Part shown: in pieces, positions 46,720 through 62,033 of the stretch
Layout: every line of letters starts with the position of its first letter
Numbering within the stretch: position 1 is the first letter of the stretch
Source of the DNA: a virus
Length of the DNA stretch: 64,000 nt
Virus record (IMG/VR): IMGVR_UViG_3300045988_035499
Direction: 5' to 3' (one strand)
The notes under the pieces: model-generated
What the model was told of the DNA's origin: nothing
Database searches by the model: none
What the model saw: only the letters and a program-made list of their open reading frames with translations
Translations under genes and position numbers: made by a program

Positions 46720-46850
46720 TTAATGCAGTAAATATTACTGCATCTATACTGTGAGAATCAGTATCAACTTTGTGGGGCTTATATTTAGACAATGTGTGAT
46801 AATAGTTGCAAATATTATTATATAATCTAATATTAGTGCAGATGAAATCA
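46720..46850 (+). repeat. RNA module copy A
   Basis: Hairpin ATACTG-TGAGAAT-CAGTAT, TGTGGGGC at 46771-46778, a variable segment, then GTGCAGATGAAATCA at 46836-46850. Confidence 0.5.
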
Positions 46851-46929
46851 AAGATAGTTCGTATTTGCGGTATTGCGGGATACGAACAAGTCAAGTCATT
46901 ATAAGACTGGGTAGCGTGATACAAAAAAT

Positions 46930-47069
46930 CCTAGCTGACCTGTAGCTAGGTATCTTTAAGGTGAGAATCCTTGACAATCCTGTGGGGCTCATATCTTTAG
47001 CTGTCCATTCAACTTGCGCTGTAGTTGAAATCGGCAACCAGCAAAGTATTAGTGCAGACGTTAAAATCA
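46930..47069 (+). repeat. RNA module copy B
   Basis: Hairpin AAGG-TGAGAAT-CCTT, TGTGGGGC at 46981-46988, a variable hairpin, then GTGCAGACGTTAAAATCA at 47052-47069. Confidence 0.5.
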
Positions 47070-47233
47070 GGAACAACTACATCATTCCTAACAATATTAT
47101 TAGTCATAAGCTTAACAACAATACGATGTAGCCAAGTATGCCCGTCTTTAGTATCTAACAAAACTACGTTTTGCCTGTTTTTGCTGTATTATTTTTAGCA
47201 ATTCATTCCAAATGACTAGTGTGTCATTACTAA

Positions 47234-48958: not shown

Positions 48959-49102
48959 TATACTTGTCTGTGAAGATAGGTATAGTCTTCAGAAAATGAC
49001 AAACATGTGGGGCGTAAGAAATTCTATATCTATAATCCATTCTGTTTAAGTTATAGATGAAAGTAACAGAAAAGAATTTTGATCGTGCAGACGTTAAAAT
49101 CA
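48959..49102 (+). repeat. RNA module copy C
   Basis: Hairpin TATACTTGTC-TGTGAA-GATAGGTATA, TGTGGGGC at 49006-49013, variable hairpin ATCTATAA/TTATAGAT, then GTGCAGACGTTAAAATCA at 49085-49102. Confidence 0.5.
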
Positions 49103-49343
49103 TGTACTCCAATAAGGATGGTTTGACAGCTATTCCTGCTTATGAGTTAAAACTATAGTGAGAGTCAGAATATATTAGGTAAGAGAAAACAAGTGAATAC
49201 TATTTATCTTATTAACATGTTTTACAACAAAAGTGGCTAAAAGAGTTTAGCAAAAGTCTGATACTTAGACTTAAAACACAAATCCAAAAGTATCTTGGTC
49301 GTCGTCAATAATTATTAACTAACAATTTAAGATTATGTAAAAA

Positions 49344-50344: not shown

Positions 50345-50569
50345 TTTTAATTTGTTAGTAACATGGTGGATTCAGTCAACCAAAGGATTACTTAAAGCCA
50401 GAACCCTAATGGAAGCTTAGTACTACTAAGCTACTAAGCAAGAGTACAAAGGACTATACAACGGTCAACCTAGCAATAGGTCAGGAGAAGGACGTGGGCT
50501 GTCTGCGAATAAGAAGTACAAATAAGCAGAGTAATTCTTTTAAATTTAAATCATTAAATATCAAGTTAT

Positions 50570-51629: not shown

Positions 51630-51868
51630 GAATCTTTGAATCAATACTCTTAGTGAGGGGCGGTTGGGCTTTTGCCGGGGATACCAGCGCACACGGACCT
51701 GAATTAACAGGTCACATATGGAATCTTTGAATCAATTATGTGGTGTTACAATGAACTACTGATCATAAGTCTGAGATCGCGACAATAAGATTGTCCCGCA
51801 TTAGTAATAATGCTGAAACGCTTTAGTCGTGATATCAAGTCAGACAGATATTTGTGAATCTTTGAATC
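51630..51868 (+). repeat. three exact copies of GAATCTTTGAATC
   Basis: Copies at 51630-51642, 51721-51733 and 51856-51868, each followed by a hairpin-rich segment. Confidence 0.7.
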
Positions 51869-51960
51869 TTATAGAACTAAGTAACGAGTTTGAGAATGTT
51901 CTATATCAGATATCGTTAGTATTATCAAGATCAGTAATAGAGATTAACCATCTCAAGACC

Positions 51961-52055
51961 ATAGGGTATATGACTTTGGTCGGTCATATACCCACATTGA
52001 CTGCTAGGTCTATGAATCAGTCGTATGGACGAGGGTTTGATCCCCTCCAGCTCCA
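51961..52055 (+). ncRNA. ssrA: tmRNA-like acceptor piece (T arm plus 3' acceptor strand); 5' boundary uncertain
   Basis: GTCGTATGGAC-GAGGG-TTTGATC-CCCTC-CAGCTCC-A closely matches the 3' end of bacterial tmRNA as I recall it (GGACGAGGGUUCGA.UCCCUCCAGCUCCACCA in Bacteroidota). Preceded by an 11-bp hairpin at 51964-51993. Confidence 0.6.
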
Positions 52056-52183
52056 CAACAAGTGCTAAAGGATGTGGGTGAGACTCCCTTAAGTGCTCGC
52101 GAGATAGTAATTGCTTGAGCTGCCTGATAACGGCTAGGATAATTTAGAAGCTTCGTTCTAGCTGGCACTTTATTACATTACAA

Positions 52184-52325
52184 GGGGCTGAATGAATTTG
52201 ACAGCGACAATGTGAAGTAGAATAGGTCAATAAGCAGATAACTGGCAACACAAGTTATGTAACAGATTACACTCGCTTAGTAGCGTAAGTAATCTAACGG
52301 CTAAGCTAATGTCGTAAAAAGCTGG
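52184..52325 (+). ncRNA. ssrA: tmRNA-like coding piece (5' acceptor strand, TTTGACAGCG box, tag reading frame); 3' boundary uncertain
   Basis: GGGGCTG pairs with CAGCTCC at 52048-52054, including a G3-U pair. GGGGCTGAATGAATTTGACAGCG resembles tmRNA 5' ends. This piece lies DOWNSTREAM of the acceptor piece, so the order is permuted. Confidence 0.6.
52244..52288 (+). other. candidate tmRNA tag reading frame GNTSYVTDYTRLVA-stop
   Basis: GGC resume codon in a CTGGC context as in Bacteroidota tmRNAs. Hydrophobic LVA C-terminus. TAA at 52286-52288. Confidence 0.5.
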
Positions 52326-52400
52326 AGTAAGTAAGCTTTGCATGGTAGTGAAGCCTTGGGTTTTACCAAGAGATAAGGAGTTCGAGTCTCCTACTTACTA
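52326..52400 (+). ncRNA. tRNA-like element with a 6-nt anticodon loop and A8
   Basis: Acceptor AGTAAGT/ACTTACT, D stem GCTT/AAGC with a 12-nt loop, T arm AGGAG-TTCGAGT-CTCCT, and anticodon arm CTTGG-GTTTTA-CCAAG (loop one nt short). Abuts the tmRNA-like coding piece. Confidence 0.5.
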
Positions 52401-52436: not shown

Positions 52437-52715
52437 ATGGGATTAATGAATTTTATCAGAGAAAACTTACCTGAATCATGGGATAAGGCTTCAACAGAAA
52501 TGAGAATGAAAACCGAATTAATACATCGGTTGCATAGTGTAGTACCATATACTTATAAAAATAGGTATCACTACAAAGAAGGTATAGCGTACATCAGAAG
52601 ACTGTTTAATACTAGAGCGGATATAATCCACTTAATAGATGCAACAGACATTGATGTTGATAAGTGGAAAGAATTAGGTAACAAAATTAAAGAAATCGAA
52701 TATCAATGCGTGTAA
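52437..52715 (+). CDS. hypothetical protein
   Basis: Intact 92-aa ORF. Confidence 0.6.
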   Translation: MGLMNFIRENLPESWDKASTEMRMKTELIHRLHSVVPYTYKNRYHYKEGIAYIRRLFNTRADIIHLIDATDIDVDKWKELGNKIKEIEYQCV

Positions 52716-52897
52716 GATACTTTGCGTGGTTCGACTCAAAAGCCGAACAGACTGAATTCATTAAATTACTTAATGATTCTCGTACTGAAAATGAAGCTAT
52801 TAATAAAGTAGCTCAGAAGTATCCAGATCTAAGAATGTCGGAAATAGCTGGAATAGTAGATAACTTTAAAAAACAAATTAATAATCATGAGACTTAA
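52706..52897 (+). CDS. hypothetical protein
   Basis: Intact 63-aa ORF overlapping its neighbours. Confidence 0.5.
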   Translation: MRVRYFAWFDSKAEQTEFIKLLNDSRTENEAINKVAQKYPDLRMSEIAGIVDNFKKQINNHET

Positions 52898-53691: not shown

Positions 53692-53721
53692 GGATATAGG
53701 GCTTTGATCGGCCCTATATCC
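53692..53721 (+). promoter_or_regulatory. 10-bp perfect hairpin immediately upstream of the sigma-factor gene
   Basis: GGATATAGGG-N10-CCCTATATCC with no T-run. Confidence 0.4.
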
Positions 53722-53739
53722 ACTATAAAGCCCGTAGAT

Positions 53740-54300
53740 ATGACAGATGAAGAAAAACAACAGTTATTCGATCTGATCAAACAGGCGAAAGAAGGCAAGC
53801 AAATTGCCTTTACAAAGCTTTATGAAAAGTATAAGCAAACTATCTACATTACTATATATCATATAGTAAATAACAGAGACGTTGCTGATGATTTAACATC
53901 AGTTACTTTCATAAAAGCTTTTTCTAAGATTAGTAGTTATGTTAATAACATTTCATTTGAGATGTGGTTAAAAACAATAGCTATTAATAGTAGTATTGAC
54001 TATATTCGTCGTACTAAAAAAGAGAAGTCAAATTATTGGATTGACGATAGTGATAATAGTTTCCAGTTGAGTGATTCTGCAGATCATTCACCTGAAGAGA
54101 ATTATATCTTTGAAGAAACAAATTTGAAACTACAAGATGCTTTATCAAGACTTCGCTTTAAGTATAGGAATATATTAAAGTTGCGTACTGAGAATAATCT
54201 CTCTTACAAAGAGATTTCAGAGCAACTTGGTCTTAGTGAGAGTCAAGTAAAATCGACACTCAATAAGGCTAGAGAGAAACTTAAACAATTGTTAAACTAA
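53740..54300 (+). CDS. ECF-type sigma-70 family RNA polymerase sigma factor
   Basis: Region 2-like DVADDLTSVTFIKAF..FEMWLKTIAINSSIDYIRR and region 4 HTH LSYKEISEQLGLSESQVKSTLNKAREKLK. Start MTDEEKQQ lies within track ORF 53704..54300. Confidence 0.75.
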   Translation: MTDEEKQQLFDLIKQAKEGKQIAFTKLYEKYKQTIYITIYHIVNNRDVADDLTSVTFIKAFSKISSYVNNISFEMWLKTIAINSSIDYIRRTKKEKSNYWIDDSDNSFQLSDSADHSPEENYIFEETNLKLQDALSRLRFKYRNILKLRTENNLSYKEISEQLGLSESQVKSTLNKAREKLKQLLN

Positions 54301-61942: not shown

Positions 61943-62013
61943 TCCTATATAGCTCAGTTGGTAGAGCCGCTAGTAATAGTGTGATTGCGCTGGTTCGAGT
62001 CCAGCTATAGGAT
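61943..62013 (+). ncRNA. tRNA-like element lacking a canonical anticodon arm
   Basis: Perfect acceptor TCCTATA/TATAGGA, D arm TAGCTCAGTTGGTAGAGC and T arm GCTGG-TTCGAGT-CCAGC. The 21 nt between them (CGCTAGTAATAGTGTGATTGC) cannot form a 5-bp stem with a 7-nt loop. Confidence 0.5.
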
Positions 62014-62033
62014 CTAATTTTAACTTTATTAAT

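What the first reader, a model, noticed from the sequence alone, without database searches (positions are those of the whole stretch)
51961..52325. Circularly permuted (two-piece) tmRNA-like gene in a phage
Seen:
- 52024-52055 reads GTATGGAC-GAGGG-TTTGATC-CCCTC-CAGCTCC-A. This is a tmRNA-type T arm plus 3' acceptor strand.
- The only perfectly complementary 5' strand, GGGGCTG (with the G3-U pair needed for alanylation), lies 129 nt DOWNSTREAM at 52184.
- That strand is followed by AATGAATTTGACAGCG, which resembles the tmRNA 5' box as I recall it for Bacteroidota/Bacillus (..UUUGACAGCGGG / ..UUCGACAGGG).
- About 40 nt further on there is a short frame, GGC AAC ACA AGT TAT GTA ACA GAT TAC ACT CGC TTA GTA GCG TAA. 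It encodes GNTSYVTDYTRLVA, which is G-started and ends in a hydrophobic LVA like ssrA degradation tags.

Established: permuted two-piece tmRNAs are described for alpha-proteobacteria, a beta-proteobacterial lineage, cyanobacteria and some mitochondria. I am not aware of one in a phage or in Bacteroidota.

Inference: a phage trans-translation RNA might manage ribosomes stalled or prematurely terminated during the TAG stop-to-sense transition, or it might retarget tagging.
Basis: partly seen in the sequence, partly recalled or inferred. Interest (0 to 1): 0.85.

Follow-up and report, generated by a model that had tools for sequence, protein, structure and literature searches.

The report
Two-piece tmRNA gene in crAss-like phage
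This gut crAss-like phage carries a real, circularly permuted gene for the ribosome-rescue RNA tmRNA, apparently derived from its Bacteroidales host; related phages already carry the same annotation in public records, so it is a sound but not new finding.

Summary
ARAGORN calls a permuted tmRNA at 51963-52379 with the tag GNTSYVTDYTRLVA. Rfam's permuted-tmRNA model matches end to end at 45.5 bits, 1.5 bits under its cut-off.

The element recurs in more than 119 IMG/VR contigs, most of crAss-like size. Across 34 distinct versions, the acceptor stem, T stem and helix P2a keep pairing through compensatory changes, and G3·U70 is kept. This shows that the upstream 3' strand and the downstream 5' strand work together.

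Anatomy:
- Acceptor piece: 51996-52055.
- Discarded spacer: 52056-52183 (15-603 nt in relatives).
- Coding piece: 52184-52325.
- A tRNA-like element follows at 52326-52400.

The tRNA-like ends, the resume context and the G-started tag resemble the one-piece tmRNAs of Bacteroidales. They do not fit the alpha, beta or cyanobacterial two-piece models.

It is not new in kind. RefSeq annotates tmRNA in five related Suoliviridae phages. A 2022 supplementary table lists about ten crAssphages as "Permuted". Two-piece tmRNAs are also described in marine phages.

The window does use TAG as a sense codon in its late genes, but a functional link to that recoding is untested.

The parts
51964..51993 (+). 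12-bp hairpin with a 6-nt loop, just upstream of the acceptor piece. It may be a 5' extension of that piece; its role is unknown.
   Evidence: RNAfold gives -18.6 kcal/mol, z = -3.9. It is present in about 40 of 115 related loci, with compensatory stem variants (TATGAC/GTCATA, TACAAC/GTTGTA, TGTAGG/CCTACA). It is absent in the other loci, so it is not a core tmRNA part.
51996..52055 (+). Acceptor piece, the 3' half of the tRNA-like domain. P2c 5' strand 51996-52002; P2b 52009-52013; P2a 52020-52027; T stem 52031-35 with 52043-47; T loop UUUGAUC 52036-42; acceptor 3' strand CAGCUCC 52048-54 (U70 = 52052); discriminator A 52055.
   Evidence: Rfam alignment, cofold minimum-free-energy structure and covariation counts. 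The last 37 nt are 33/37 identical to the 3' ends of Bacteroidales tmRNAs.
52056..52183 (+). Intervening segment of 128 nt, inferred to be removed during processing.
   Evidence: It is not conserved. Its length is 15-603 nt in 115 related loci, and some carry a 176-aa ORF on the opposite strand. It has no structure signal (z = +0.4). The first base after the discriminator is always C and the second is never C, so CCA is not encoded.
52184..52325 (+). Coding piece. Acceptor 5' strand GGGGCUG 52184-90 (G3 = 52186); D-loop analogue with the UUUGAC box 52191-52201; P2a 52202-08; P2b 52217-21; P2c 52225-31; resume codon GGC 52244-46; helix P5 52264-70 with 52289-95 (inner hairpin 52274-77 with 52282-85); pseudoknot stem 1 52297-301 with 52311-15 and stem 2 52304-07 with 52320-23.
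   Evidence: The 3' end at 52325 is inferred from the start of the adjoining tRNA-like element.
52244..52288 (+). Tag reading frame GNTSYVTDYTRLVA plus stop codon TAA.
   Evidence: ARAGORN. The frame is intact in all 76 distinct relatives, is 13-14 aa long and always ends in [L/I][A/V/T]A. Variable sites by codon position 1/2/3 number 6/5/11.
52326..52400 (+). tRNA-like element abutting the coding piece. It forms a cloverleaf with a 6-nt anticodon loop (GUUUUA). It is the likely RNase P processing signal that defines the 3' end of the coding piece.
   Evidence: Rfam tRNA at 30.5 bits against a gathering score of 29, RNAfold cloverleaf and ARAGORN 'tRNA-??? (tt)'. All inspected relatives have a tRNA (Leu-taa, Ile-aat) or a T-arm/acceptor mini-helix at this position.

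Best explanation
The locus is a functional, circularly permuted ssrA gene that yields a two-piece tmRNA of about 200 nt.

Shown by sequence:
- An acceptor piece (51996-52055) lies upstream of a coding piece (52184-52325) on the same strand.
- The two pieces can pair through a 7-bp acceptor stem with G3·U70 and an A discriminator, and through three P2 helices of 7, 5 and 7 bp.
- The coding piece carries a conserved 14-codon tag frame, a P5 helix around the stop codon and one downstream pseudoknot.

Inferred:
- One precursor is transcribed. In some relatives the spacer is only 15-17 nt, too short to hold a separate promoter.
- Host RNase P cuts 5' of G52184 and 5' of the tRNA-like element at 52326.
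- The trailer after A52055 is trimmed and CCA is completed by the host enzyme.
- Host AlaRS charges the RNA with alanine and host SmpB and EF-Tu deliver it to stalled ribosomes.
- Translation resumes at GGC and appends A-GNTSYVTDYTRLVA, a hydrophobic-ended degradation tag.

The gene appears to descend from a Bacteroidales one-piece tmRNA by permutation and loss of most pseudoknots. The likely benefit is to keep ribosome rescue and tagging running during infection. Why this phage family needs its own copy is not established.
For: - ARAGORN calls a permuted tmRNA.
- RF04321 matches end to end at 45.5 bits, E = 1.9e-7.
- Joining the coding and acceptor pieces in the standard order gives an ARAGORN standard tmRNA with the same tag.
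- The two-strand minimum-free-energy fold reproduces the acceptor stem, T arm, P2a/b/c, P5 and pseudoknot stem 1.
- More than 119 IMG/VR contigs carry the coding-piece motif. Of 122 loci with a coding piece, 115 have the acceptor piece upstream on the same strand and 5 more have it split by an intron.
- There are six acceptor-stem variants, all 7/7 paired and all with G1, G2 and G3·U70.
- On 34 distinct sequences, 93% of cells are paired against 32-48% when partners are slid. Eighteen pairs have changes on both sides. No shuffle of 500 reaches the observed values. The T stem co-varies at 5 of 5 pairs, P2a at 6 of 7 and the acceptor stem at 3 of 7.
- The tag frame is intact in 76 of 76 distinct sequences.
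- Similarity to the host is high: 33/37 at the 3' end, 22/25 at the 5' end, a shared TAACT|GGCAA resume context, and host tags such as GNNSYALAA and GENNYALAA.
- RefSeq annotates tmRNA in relatives.
Against: - No expression or RNA-end data exist, so every processing step is inferred.
- The Rfam score is 1.5 bits below the gathering cut-off.
- No PK1 could be found. Only about 13 nt separate P2c from the resume codon, and the small hairpin of the Rfam model is unmatched there.
- CCA is not encoded.
- Some relatives have non-canonical T loops (UAUCGUAU, GGCAGUA).
- No SmpB was found among 20 nearby ORFs, so function depends on host factors, whose compatibility is untested.
- P2b, P2c and pseudoknot stem 1 never vary, so covariation says nothing about them.
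Confidence: 0.8

Rival explanations
1. The RNA is made but acts mainly as a decoy. Its tRNA-like domain would soak up host SmpB, AlaRS or EF-Tu to damp host trans-translation, as proposed for the tRNA-like-domain-only RNA of mycobacteriophage DS6A. Tagging would be irrelevant.
For: The tRNA-like domain closely mimics the host's. No phage SmpB was found nearby. PK1 is missing. The DS6A precedent is cited in PMC4131195 and PMC11915505.
Against: The tag frame, its length, its [L/I][A/V/T]A end and the P5 helix around the stop codon are conserved in 76 of 76 distinct sequences, with most variable sites at third codon positions. A pure decoy would not need any of these.
Confidence: 0.1
2. The tmRNA is specifically an accessory of TAG recoding. 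It would rescue ribosomes and mark products that arise when TAG is read ambiguously, either as premature stops in late genes or as read-through of host and early genes.
For: Late genes on the minus strand carry 1-19 in-frame TAGs each. Total ORF length rises from 8576 to 15386 aa when TAG is read as sense. Suoliviridae are known TAG-to-Gln recoders (PMC10136315). All phage tags stop at TAA or TGA, often TGA followed by TAA.
Against: No test of co-occurrence was made. Avoidance of TAG as the tag stop is also the host norm (1 of 67). tmRNA does not normally act on ribosomes paused at intact in-frame stop codons (established knowledge). Marine phages that carry two-piece tmRNAs are not reported to be recoded (PMC9004378).
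Confidence: 0.15
3. The upstream T-arm/acceptor segment is only an attP-like copy or relic of the host ssrA 3' end, and the downstream match is coincidental.
For: The 3' 37 nt are 33/37 identical to host ssrA ends, as an attP core would be.
Against: The downstream 5' strand co-varies with the upstream strand across six stem variants. A complete P2, tag frame, P5 and pseudoknot follow it. The re-joined sequence is a standard tmRNA. No integrase was found among 20 neighbouring ORFs. Not all ORFs of the window were scanned.
Confidence: 0.02

Closest known systems
Two-piece (permuted) tmRNAs of Alphaproteobacteria, a betaproteobacterial lineage and Cyanobacteria (Rfam RF01849, RF01850, RF01851; merged model RF04321)
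   Same: The gene order is the same: acceptor piece, then spacer, then coding piece. The tRNA-like domain is assembled from two strands. It has G3·U70, P2 helices, a tag frame and a reduced set of pseudoknots. The whole RF04321 model is matched.
   Different: It does not reach any lineage-specific model (beta partial match at 26.4 bits against a cut-off of 84; the others score lower). The tag starts with Gly and, like the tRNA-like ends, resembles Bacteroidota tmRNAs. No PK1 was found. It sits in a phage whose sampled host relatives all have one-piece tmRNAs.
Phage-encoded two-piece tmRNAs of marine phages (OM43 phage Melnitz, pelagimyophages, cyanophages; PMC9004378)
   Same: A phage-borne permuted ssrA in a lytic-type genome with no integrase nearby. 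It is called by ARAGORN in the same way.
   Different: The marine examples match the two-piece lineage of their hosts or former hosts (alpha or cyano), and Melnitz has a glutamine riboswitch. Here the host clade uses one-piece tmRNA and no riboswitch was detected.
Annotated 'transfer-messenger RNA, SsrA' of RefSeq crAss-like phages cr60_1, cr52_1, cr114_1, cr125_1 and cr115_1 (Suoliviridae)
   Same: It is the same element. It has the same invariant P2 and pre-tag sequences and the same tag family (GNTSYVMDYTRLAA, GNTSYIMNYSRIAA and others), and a tRNA or tRNA-like element follows it.
   Different: The window is about 80% identical at the DNA level. It has its own spacer and the GGGGCUG/CAGCUCC version of the tRNA-like domain. 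Some relatives (cr53_1) carry the element without annotation.
Standard one-piece tmRNA of Bacteroidales (about 395-405 nt, tags such as GENNYALAA)
   Same: The 5' end (GGGGCUGA..UUUGACAGCG), the 3' end (GGACGAGGGUUyrAUyCCCUCCAGCUCCAC), the GGC resume codon with its TAACU context, and the G-N-x-S-Y...L-A-A tag pattern.
   Different: The phage gene is permuted and about half the size. It has one pseudoknot, where standard tmRNAs typically have four per PMC11915505. Its tag is 14 aa instead of 9-10, and CCA is not encoded.

Membership tests
tmRNA (ssrA) | A 7-bp acceptor stem formed by the RNA's 5' and 3' strands | tested here: met
   GGGGCUG with CAGCUCC pairs 7/7. There are six co-varying variants in relatives, and 98.7% of cells are paired.
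tmRNA (ssrA) | Alanine identity elements: a G3·U70 wobble pair and an A73 discriminator | tested here: met
   G52186·U52052 and A52055. U·G is found in 33 of 34 aligned sequences, and every one of the 19 listed acceptor/T-arm variants, including GGGUGUG/CACAUCC, keeps G3·U70. Charging itself was not tested.
tmRNA (ssrA) | A T arm with a 5-bp stem and 7-nt loop next to the 3' acceptor strand | tested here: met
   GAGGG-UUUGAUC-CCCUC. All 5 pairs show changes on both sides among relatives. Some relatives have atypical loops.
tmRNA (ssrA) | A tag reading frame with an internal resume codon and a hydrophobic C-terminal end | tested here: met
   GNTSYVTDYTRLVA. The frame is intact in 76 of 76 distinct relatives and ends in [L/I][A/V/T]A.
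tmRNA (ssrA) | Pseudoknot PK1 between P2 and the resume codon | tested here: not met
   Only about 13 nt lie between P2c and GGC. The post-P2 hairpin of the Rfam model is unmatched. A hairpin enclosing the resume codon is predicted but never varies.
tmRNA (ssrA) | The Rfam curated score threshold (RF04321, gathering score 47) | tested here: not met
   45.5 bits, 1.5 below the cut-off, although the alignment covers the full model and E = 1.9e-7.
tmRNA (ssrA) | Works with SmpB | not testable with these tools
   No SmpB domain was found in 20 ORFs around the locus. Use of host SmpB is inferred.
Two-piece (permuted) tmRNA | The acceptor piece is encoded upstream of the coding piece on one strand | tested here: met
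   Found in the window and in 115 of 122 related loci, plus 5 with an intron in the T loop.
Two-piece (permuted) tmRNA | The precursor is cleaved into two RNAs held together by base pairing | not testable with these tools
   This is supported only indirectly. The spacer is unconserved and 15-603 nt long, and the two-strand fold is stable (-58.8 kcal/mol against -47.7 ± 3.9 for shuffles).
Alpha, beta or cyano two-piece lineages (RF01849, RF01850, RF01851) | A match to the lineage-specific model at its gathering score | tested here: not met
   The best is beta_tmRNA at 26.4 bits against 84, covering the tRNA-like domain only.
attP or ssrA 3' fragment of an integrating element | Only the 3' end of ssrA is present, it does not co-vary with a partner strand, and an integrase is nearby | tested here: not met
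   A complete partner piece co-varies with it. No integrase was found among 20 ORFs.

The most novel reading that the evidence does not exclude
The crAss-like (Suoliviridae) tmRNA may be a further, independent origin of gene permutation. It would have been derived inside phages from a Bacteroidales one-piece tmRNA and reduced to about 200 nt with a single pseudoknot.

The permuted order makes the whole tRNA-like domain one contiguous cassette flanked by invariant sequence. That cassette is exchanged or diversified between phage lineages (at least six acceptor/T-arm versions). In some lineages it also carries a group I intron in the T loop, a combined 'permuted plus intron' gene form that the 2025 tmRNA database paper does not list among its forms.
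Probability: 0.55. Interest if true: 0.6.

Novelty: new member of a known kind. Interest (0 to 1): 0.4.

Why it matters
Suoliviridae are abundant gut phages, and a 2023 review reports none in culture. A conserved phage-borne ribosome-rescue RNA shows that these phages invest in the host's translation quality control.

The element is a natural minimal two-piece tmRNA of about 200 nt, against about 400 nt in the host. That could show which parts trans-translation really needs.

If the independent Bacteroidales origin holds, it adds another lineage to the known permuted tmRNAs.

It also matters for annotation. The element is missed, or covered by spurious ORFs, in some records. Copies binned into Bacteroidota MAGs might be counted as bacterial 'permuted' tmRNAs.

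The link to TAG recoding would be interesting but is only a hypothesis.

Tried and rejected
- The first IMG/VR scan used the T-arm/acceptor 23-mer. It was too general: most hits were unrelated ssrA ends, and only about 9 were homologues.
- Pairing acceptor and coding hits within a 600-nt limit wrongly left 28 loci unpaired. Relaxing the limit showed spacers of 601-603 nt, intron-split T loops and one divergent version of the tRNA-like domain.
- I considered pairing of the coding piece's 3' end (AGCUGGAG) with the acceptor strand. I rejected it because it does not co-vary in cr60_1-type sequences.
- I looked by eye for a PK1 involving the P2 internal loops and found no consistent pairing.
- Pfam and PHROGs scans of neighbouring ORFs found no SmpB, no integrase and no ribosomal-protein homologue. 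The ORF annotated 'ribosomal protein-like' in relatives is at best marginally similar to the window ORF 52706-52897 (24% identity, E = 0.01).
- The 176-aa ORF in long spacers has no Pfam match.
- Sigma-70-type promoter and terminator scans around the locus were uninformative.
- Supplementary Table 2 of the tmRNA database paper has no phage rows.
- No paper in the searchable library discusses tmRNA in Crassvirales in its text.

Full report

Yes. The sequence reads as described.
- The T arm and 3' acceptor strand end at the discriminator A52055.
- GGGGCTG lies at 52184-52190, 129 nt downstream. It is the only copy of that heptamer on either strand of the window.
- The UUUGACAGCG box follows it.
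- GGC AAC ... GCG TAA occupies 52244-52288.

Two detectors agree.
- ARAGORN reports a permuted tmRNA (tmRNA*) at 51963-52379 with the tag GNTSYVTDYTRLVA. It produced one tmRNA call in 1.28 Mb of shuffled window sequence.
- Rfam 15's general permuted model RF04321 aligns 51996-52288 over all 213 model positions at 45.5 bits, E = 1.9e-7 in a 1.4-kb search. This is 1.5 bits short of the gathering score, which is why the whole-window gathering scan did not list it.
- The lineage-specific beta model matches only the tRNA-like domain, at 26.4 bits against a cut-off of 84.

**2. What genome is this?**

The region is about 80% identical to RefSeq crAss-like phages of the family Suoliviridae: cr53_1, cr60_1, cr56_1, cr52_1, cr114_1 and others.

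The minus-strand late genes of the window carry 1-19 in-frame TAG codons each. Total ORF length nearly doubles when TAG is read as sense. The plus-strand block that holds the tmRNA shows no such signal. A review describes TAG-to-Gln recoding of late genes in Suoliviridae (PMC10136315).

**3. Comparative evidence**

With nhmmer and scripts I found 122 loci with a coding piece.
- 115 have an acceptor piece upstream on the same strand.
- 5 more have it split by an insertion.
- The rest lie too near a contig end to show one.

The spacer between the pieces varies from 15 to 603 nt and is not conserved.

The acceptor stem occurs in six versions: GGGGCUG/CAGCUCC, GGGGCAU/AUGCUCC, GGGGCUA/UAGCUCC, GGGGAUG/CAUCUCC, GGGGUAU/AUACUCC and GGGUGUG/CACAUCC. 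Each is paired 7/7, and each keeps G1-C72, G2-C71 and G3·U70.

On an alignment of 34 distinct sequences (A1) I tested a structure I specified.
- 93% of cells are paired, against 32-48% when partners are slid.
- 18 pairs have changes on both sides, against 5-11 when slid.
- No shuffle out of 500 reaches the observed covariation.
- All five T-stem pairs, six of seven P2a pairs and three acceptor pairs show double changes.
- P2b, P2c and pseudoknot stem 1 never vary, so they are neither supported nor contradicted.
- Pseudoknot stem 2 has one compensatory change.
- The P5 helix around the stop codon co-varies (AGAUUAC/GUAAUCU, GGACU/AGUCC, GAACU/AGUUC).

An independent two-strand minimum-free-energy fold of the window's pieces reproduces the acceptor stem, T arm, P2a/b/c, P5 and pseudoknot stem 1. 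Its energy is -58.8 kcal/mol, against -47.7 ± 3.9 for shuffles.

Joining the coding piece to the acceptor piece in the standard order yields a 209-nt sequence that ARAGORN calls a standard tmRNA with the same tag.

The tag frame is intact in all 76 distinct sequences. It is 13-14 codons long and always ends in [L/I][A/V/T]A. Variable sites number 6, 5 and 11 at codon positions 1, 2 and 3.

**4. Anatomy in the window**
- Hairpin 51964-51993, present in a subset of lineages only.
- Acceptor piece 51996-52055.
- Spacer 52056-52183.
- Coding piece 52184-52325.
- tRNA-like element 52326-52400, with a 6-nt anticodon loop (Rfam tRNA 30.5 bits).

In every relative I inspected, a tRNA (Leu-taa, Ile-aat), an odd tRNA-like element or a T-arm/acceptor mini-helix abuts the coding piece. 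The base after the discriminator is always C and the next is never C, so CCA is not encoded.

**5. Mechanism**

Shown by sequence: two complementary pieces form a tRNA-like domain with alanine identity elements, a conserved tag frame, P5 and one pseudoknot.

Inferred from established knowledge of two-piece tmRNAs (Keiler et al. 2000, as cited in PMC9004378 and PMC11915505):
- The pieces are co-transcribed. Spacers of 15-17 nt in some relatives leave no room for a second promoter.
- RNase P cleaves at G52184 and at the 5' end of the tRNA-like element.
- The 3' end is trimmed and CCA is added.
- Host AlaRS charges the RNA, and host SmpB and EF-Tu deliver it.
- Translation resumes at GGC.
- A-GNTSYVTDYTRLVA is added to stalled nascent chains.

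No SmpB domain was found in 20 surrounding ORFs, one of which is an ECF-type sigma factor at 53704-54300. Dependence on host SmpB fits the host-like tRNA-like domain.

**6. Origin**

A genome scan for the 5' motif returned Bacteroidota tmRNAs, all of the standard one-piece form and about 395-405 nt long. Their tags include GENNYALAA, GNNNYALAA and GNNSYALAA. The scan also returned Microbacterium tmRNAs with A-started tags and chance hits inside coding genes of other phyla.

The phage element resembles the Bacteroidales RNAs closely.
- The 3' end is 33/37 identical.
- The 5' end is 22/25 identical, partly forced by the search pattern.
- The TAACU|GGCAA resume context is shared.
- The G-N-x-S-Y...L-A-A tag pattern is shared.

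Together with the failure of the alpha, beta and cyano models, this points to an independent permutation of a Bacteroidales-type tmRNA. No formal phylogeny was made.

**7. Is it new?**

Not in kind.
- PMC9004378 describes two-piece tmRNAs in marine phages. Its Table S1 lists crAssphage cr115_1, cr114_1, cr10_1, cr50_1, cr273_1, cr125_1, cr124_1, cr7_1, cr60_1 and cr52_1 as 'Permuted'.
- RefSeq annotates 'transfer-messenger RNA, SsrA' in five related genomes.
- The 2025 tmRNA database scanned RefSeq viruses and counts 79 unique phage sequences. It classifies permuted forms only as alpha, beta or cyano.
- No paper in the searchable library discusses tmRNA in Crassvirales in its text.

So the window's element is a new member of an already annotated but essentially undescribed phage tmRNA family.

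**8. Function beyond 'tmRNA'**

Recoding is present. The absence of TAG as the tag stop (0 of 76) matches the host norm (1 of 67). I made no test of association.

A decoy role is made unlikely by conservation of the tag and P5. The attP reading is excluded by covariation.

**9. Limits**
- There are no expression data, and the processing sites are inferred.
- PK1 was not found.
- The Rfam score is marginally sub-threshold.
- Only part of the window's ORFs were scanned for SmpB or an integrase.

Noticed in passing
L196:1889-2950 (also L141, L181, L205, L200): In five related phage loci the acceptor piece is interrupted in its T loop (GAGGGUU^CGACUCCCUC) by an insertion of about 870 nt. The start of the insertion matches Rfam Intron_gpI at 85 bits (E = 7e-22). 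The site corresponds to T-loop position 3, which the 2025 tmRNA database paper reports only from class Bacteroidia. A gene that is both permuted and intron-containing is not among the forms that paper lists. The 3' splice site was not resolved.
   Followed up: partly
window 46742-46853, 46952-47072, 48985-49105, 50372-50541, 51696-51778: Three Hatchet ribozymes and a RAGATH-9 RNA, all above their Rfam gathering scores, plus a weak RAGATH-20-like match (32.6 bits against 101). All lie on the plus strand within 5.5 kb upstream of the tmRNA, so this early region is unusually rich in structured RNAs.
   Followed up: no
window 52326-52400 and 61943-62014: Two tRNA-like genes for which ARAGORN reports 6-nt anticodon loops ('tt' and 'aa'). 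Rfam tRNA scores are 30.5 and 45.3 bits. Relatives have similar 6-nt-loop versions, or mini-helices lacking an anticodon arm, at the position after the tmRNA. They may be processing signals rather than decoding tRNAs.
   Followed up: partly
window 3267-37963, minus strand: Late genes use TAG as a sense codon, with 1-19 in-frame TAGs per long ORF. ARAGORN found no tRNA with a CUA anticodon in the window, with or without its intron option.
   Followed up: partly
window 51630, 51721, 51856, 57641 (plus strand): The exact 13-mer GAATCTTTGAATC occurs four times on the plus strand. Three copies lie in the 360-nt non-coding stretch just upstream of the tmRNA. It may be a promoter or a repeat of an RNA unit.
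   Followed up: partly
alignment A1; window 51996-52013 and 52218-52248: The P2b/P2c strands and the pre-tag sequence (AUUGACUGUUAGGUCUA and UAGAAUAGGUCAAUA...AUAACUGGCAA) are almost invariant. The tRNA-like domain between them, which is contiguous in the permuted gene, exists in at least six very different versions. This pattern suggests cassette exchange by recombination.
   Followed up: partly
L194, L217, L128, L146, L206, L149 (spacer of 601-603 nt): In these loci the spacer between the two tmRNA pieces holds a 176-aa ORF on the opposite strand. It has Cys-rich N-terminal motifs and no Pfam match. It may be a homing-endonuclease-like insertion.
   Followed up: partly
L126 (NC_055889 cr53_1) 1880-1939 and 2011-2157: The closest RefSeq relative carries the same two tmRNA pieces, but its record has no tmRNA feature there. 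In the window, mechanical ORFs such as 51829-52068 overlap the RNA gene and could be miscalled as proteins.
   Followed up: yes
window 38024-38128, minus strand: A 104-nt match to the Rfam tRNA model (34 bits). ARAGORN reads it as tRNA-Val(gac) with a 16-nt intron. An adjacent ARAGORN call of tRNA-Lys with a 998-nt intron looks doubtful.
   Followed up: no
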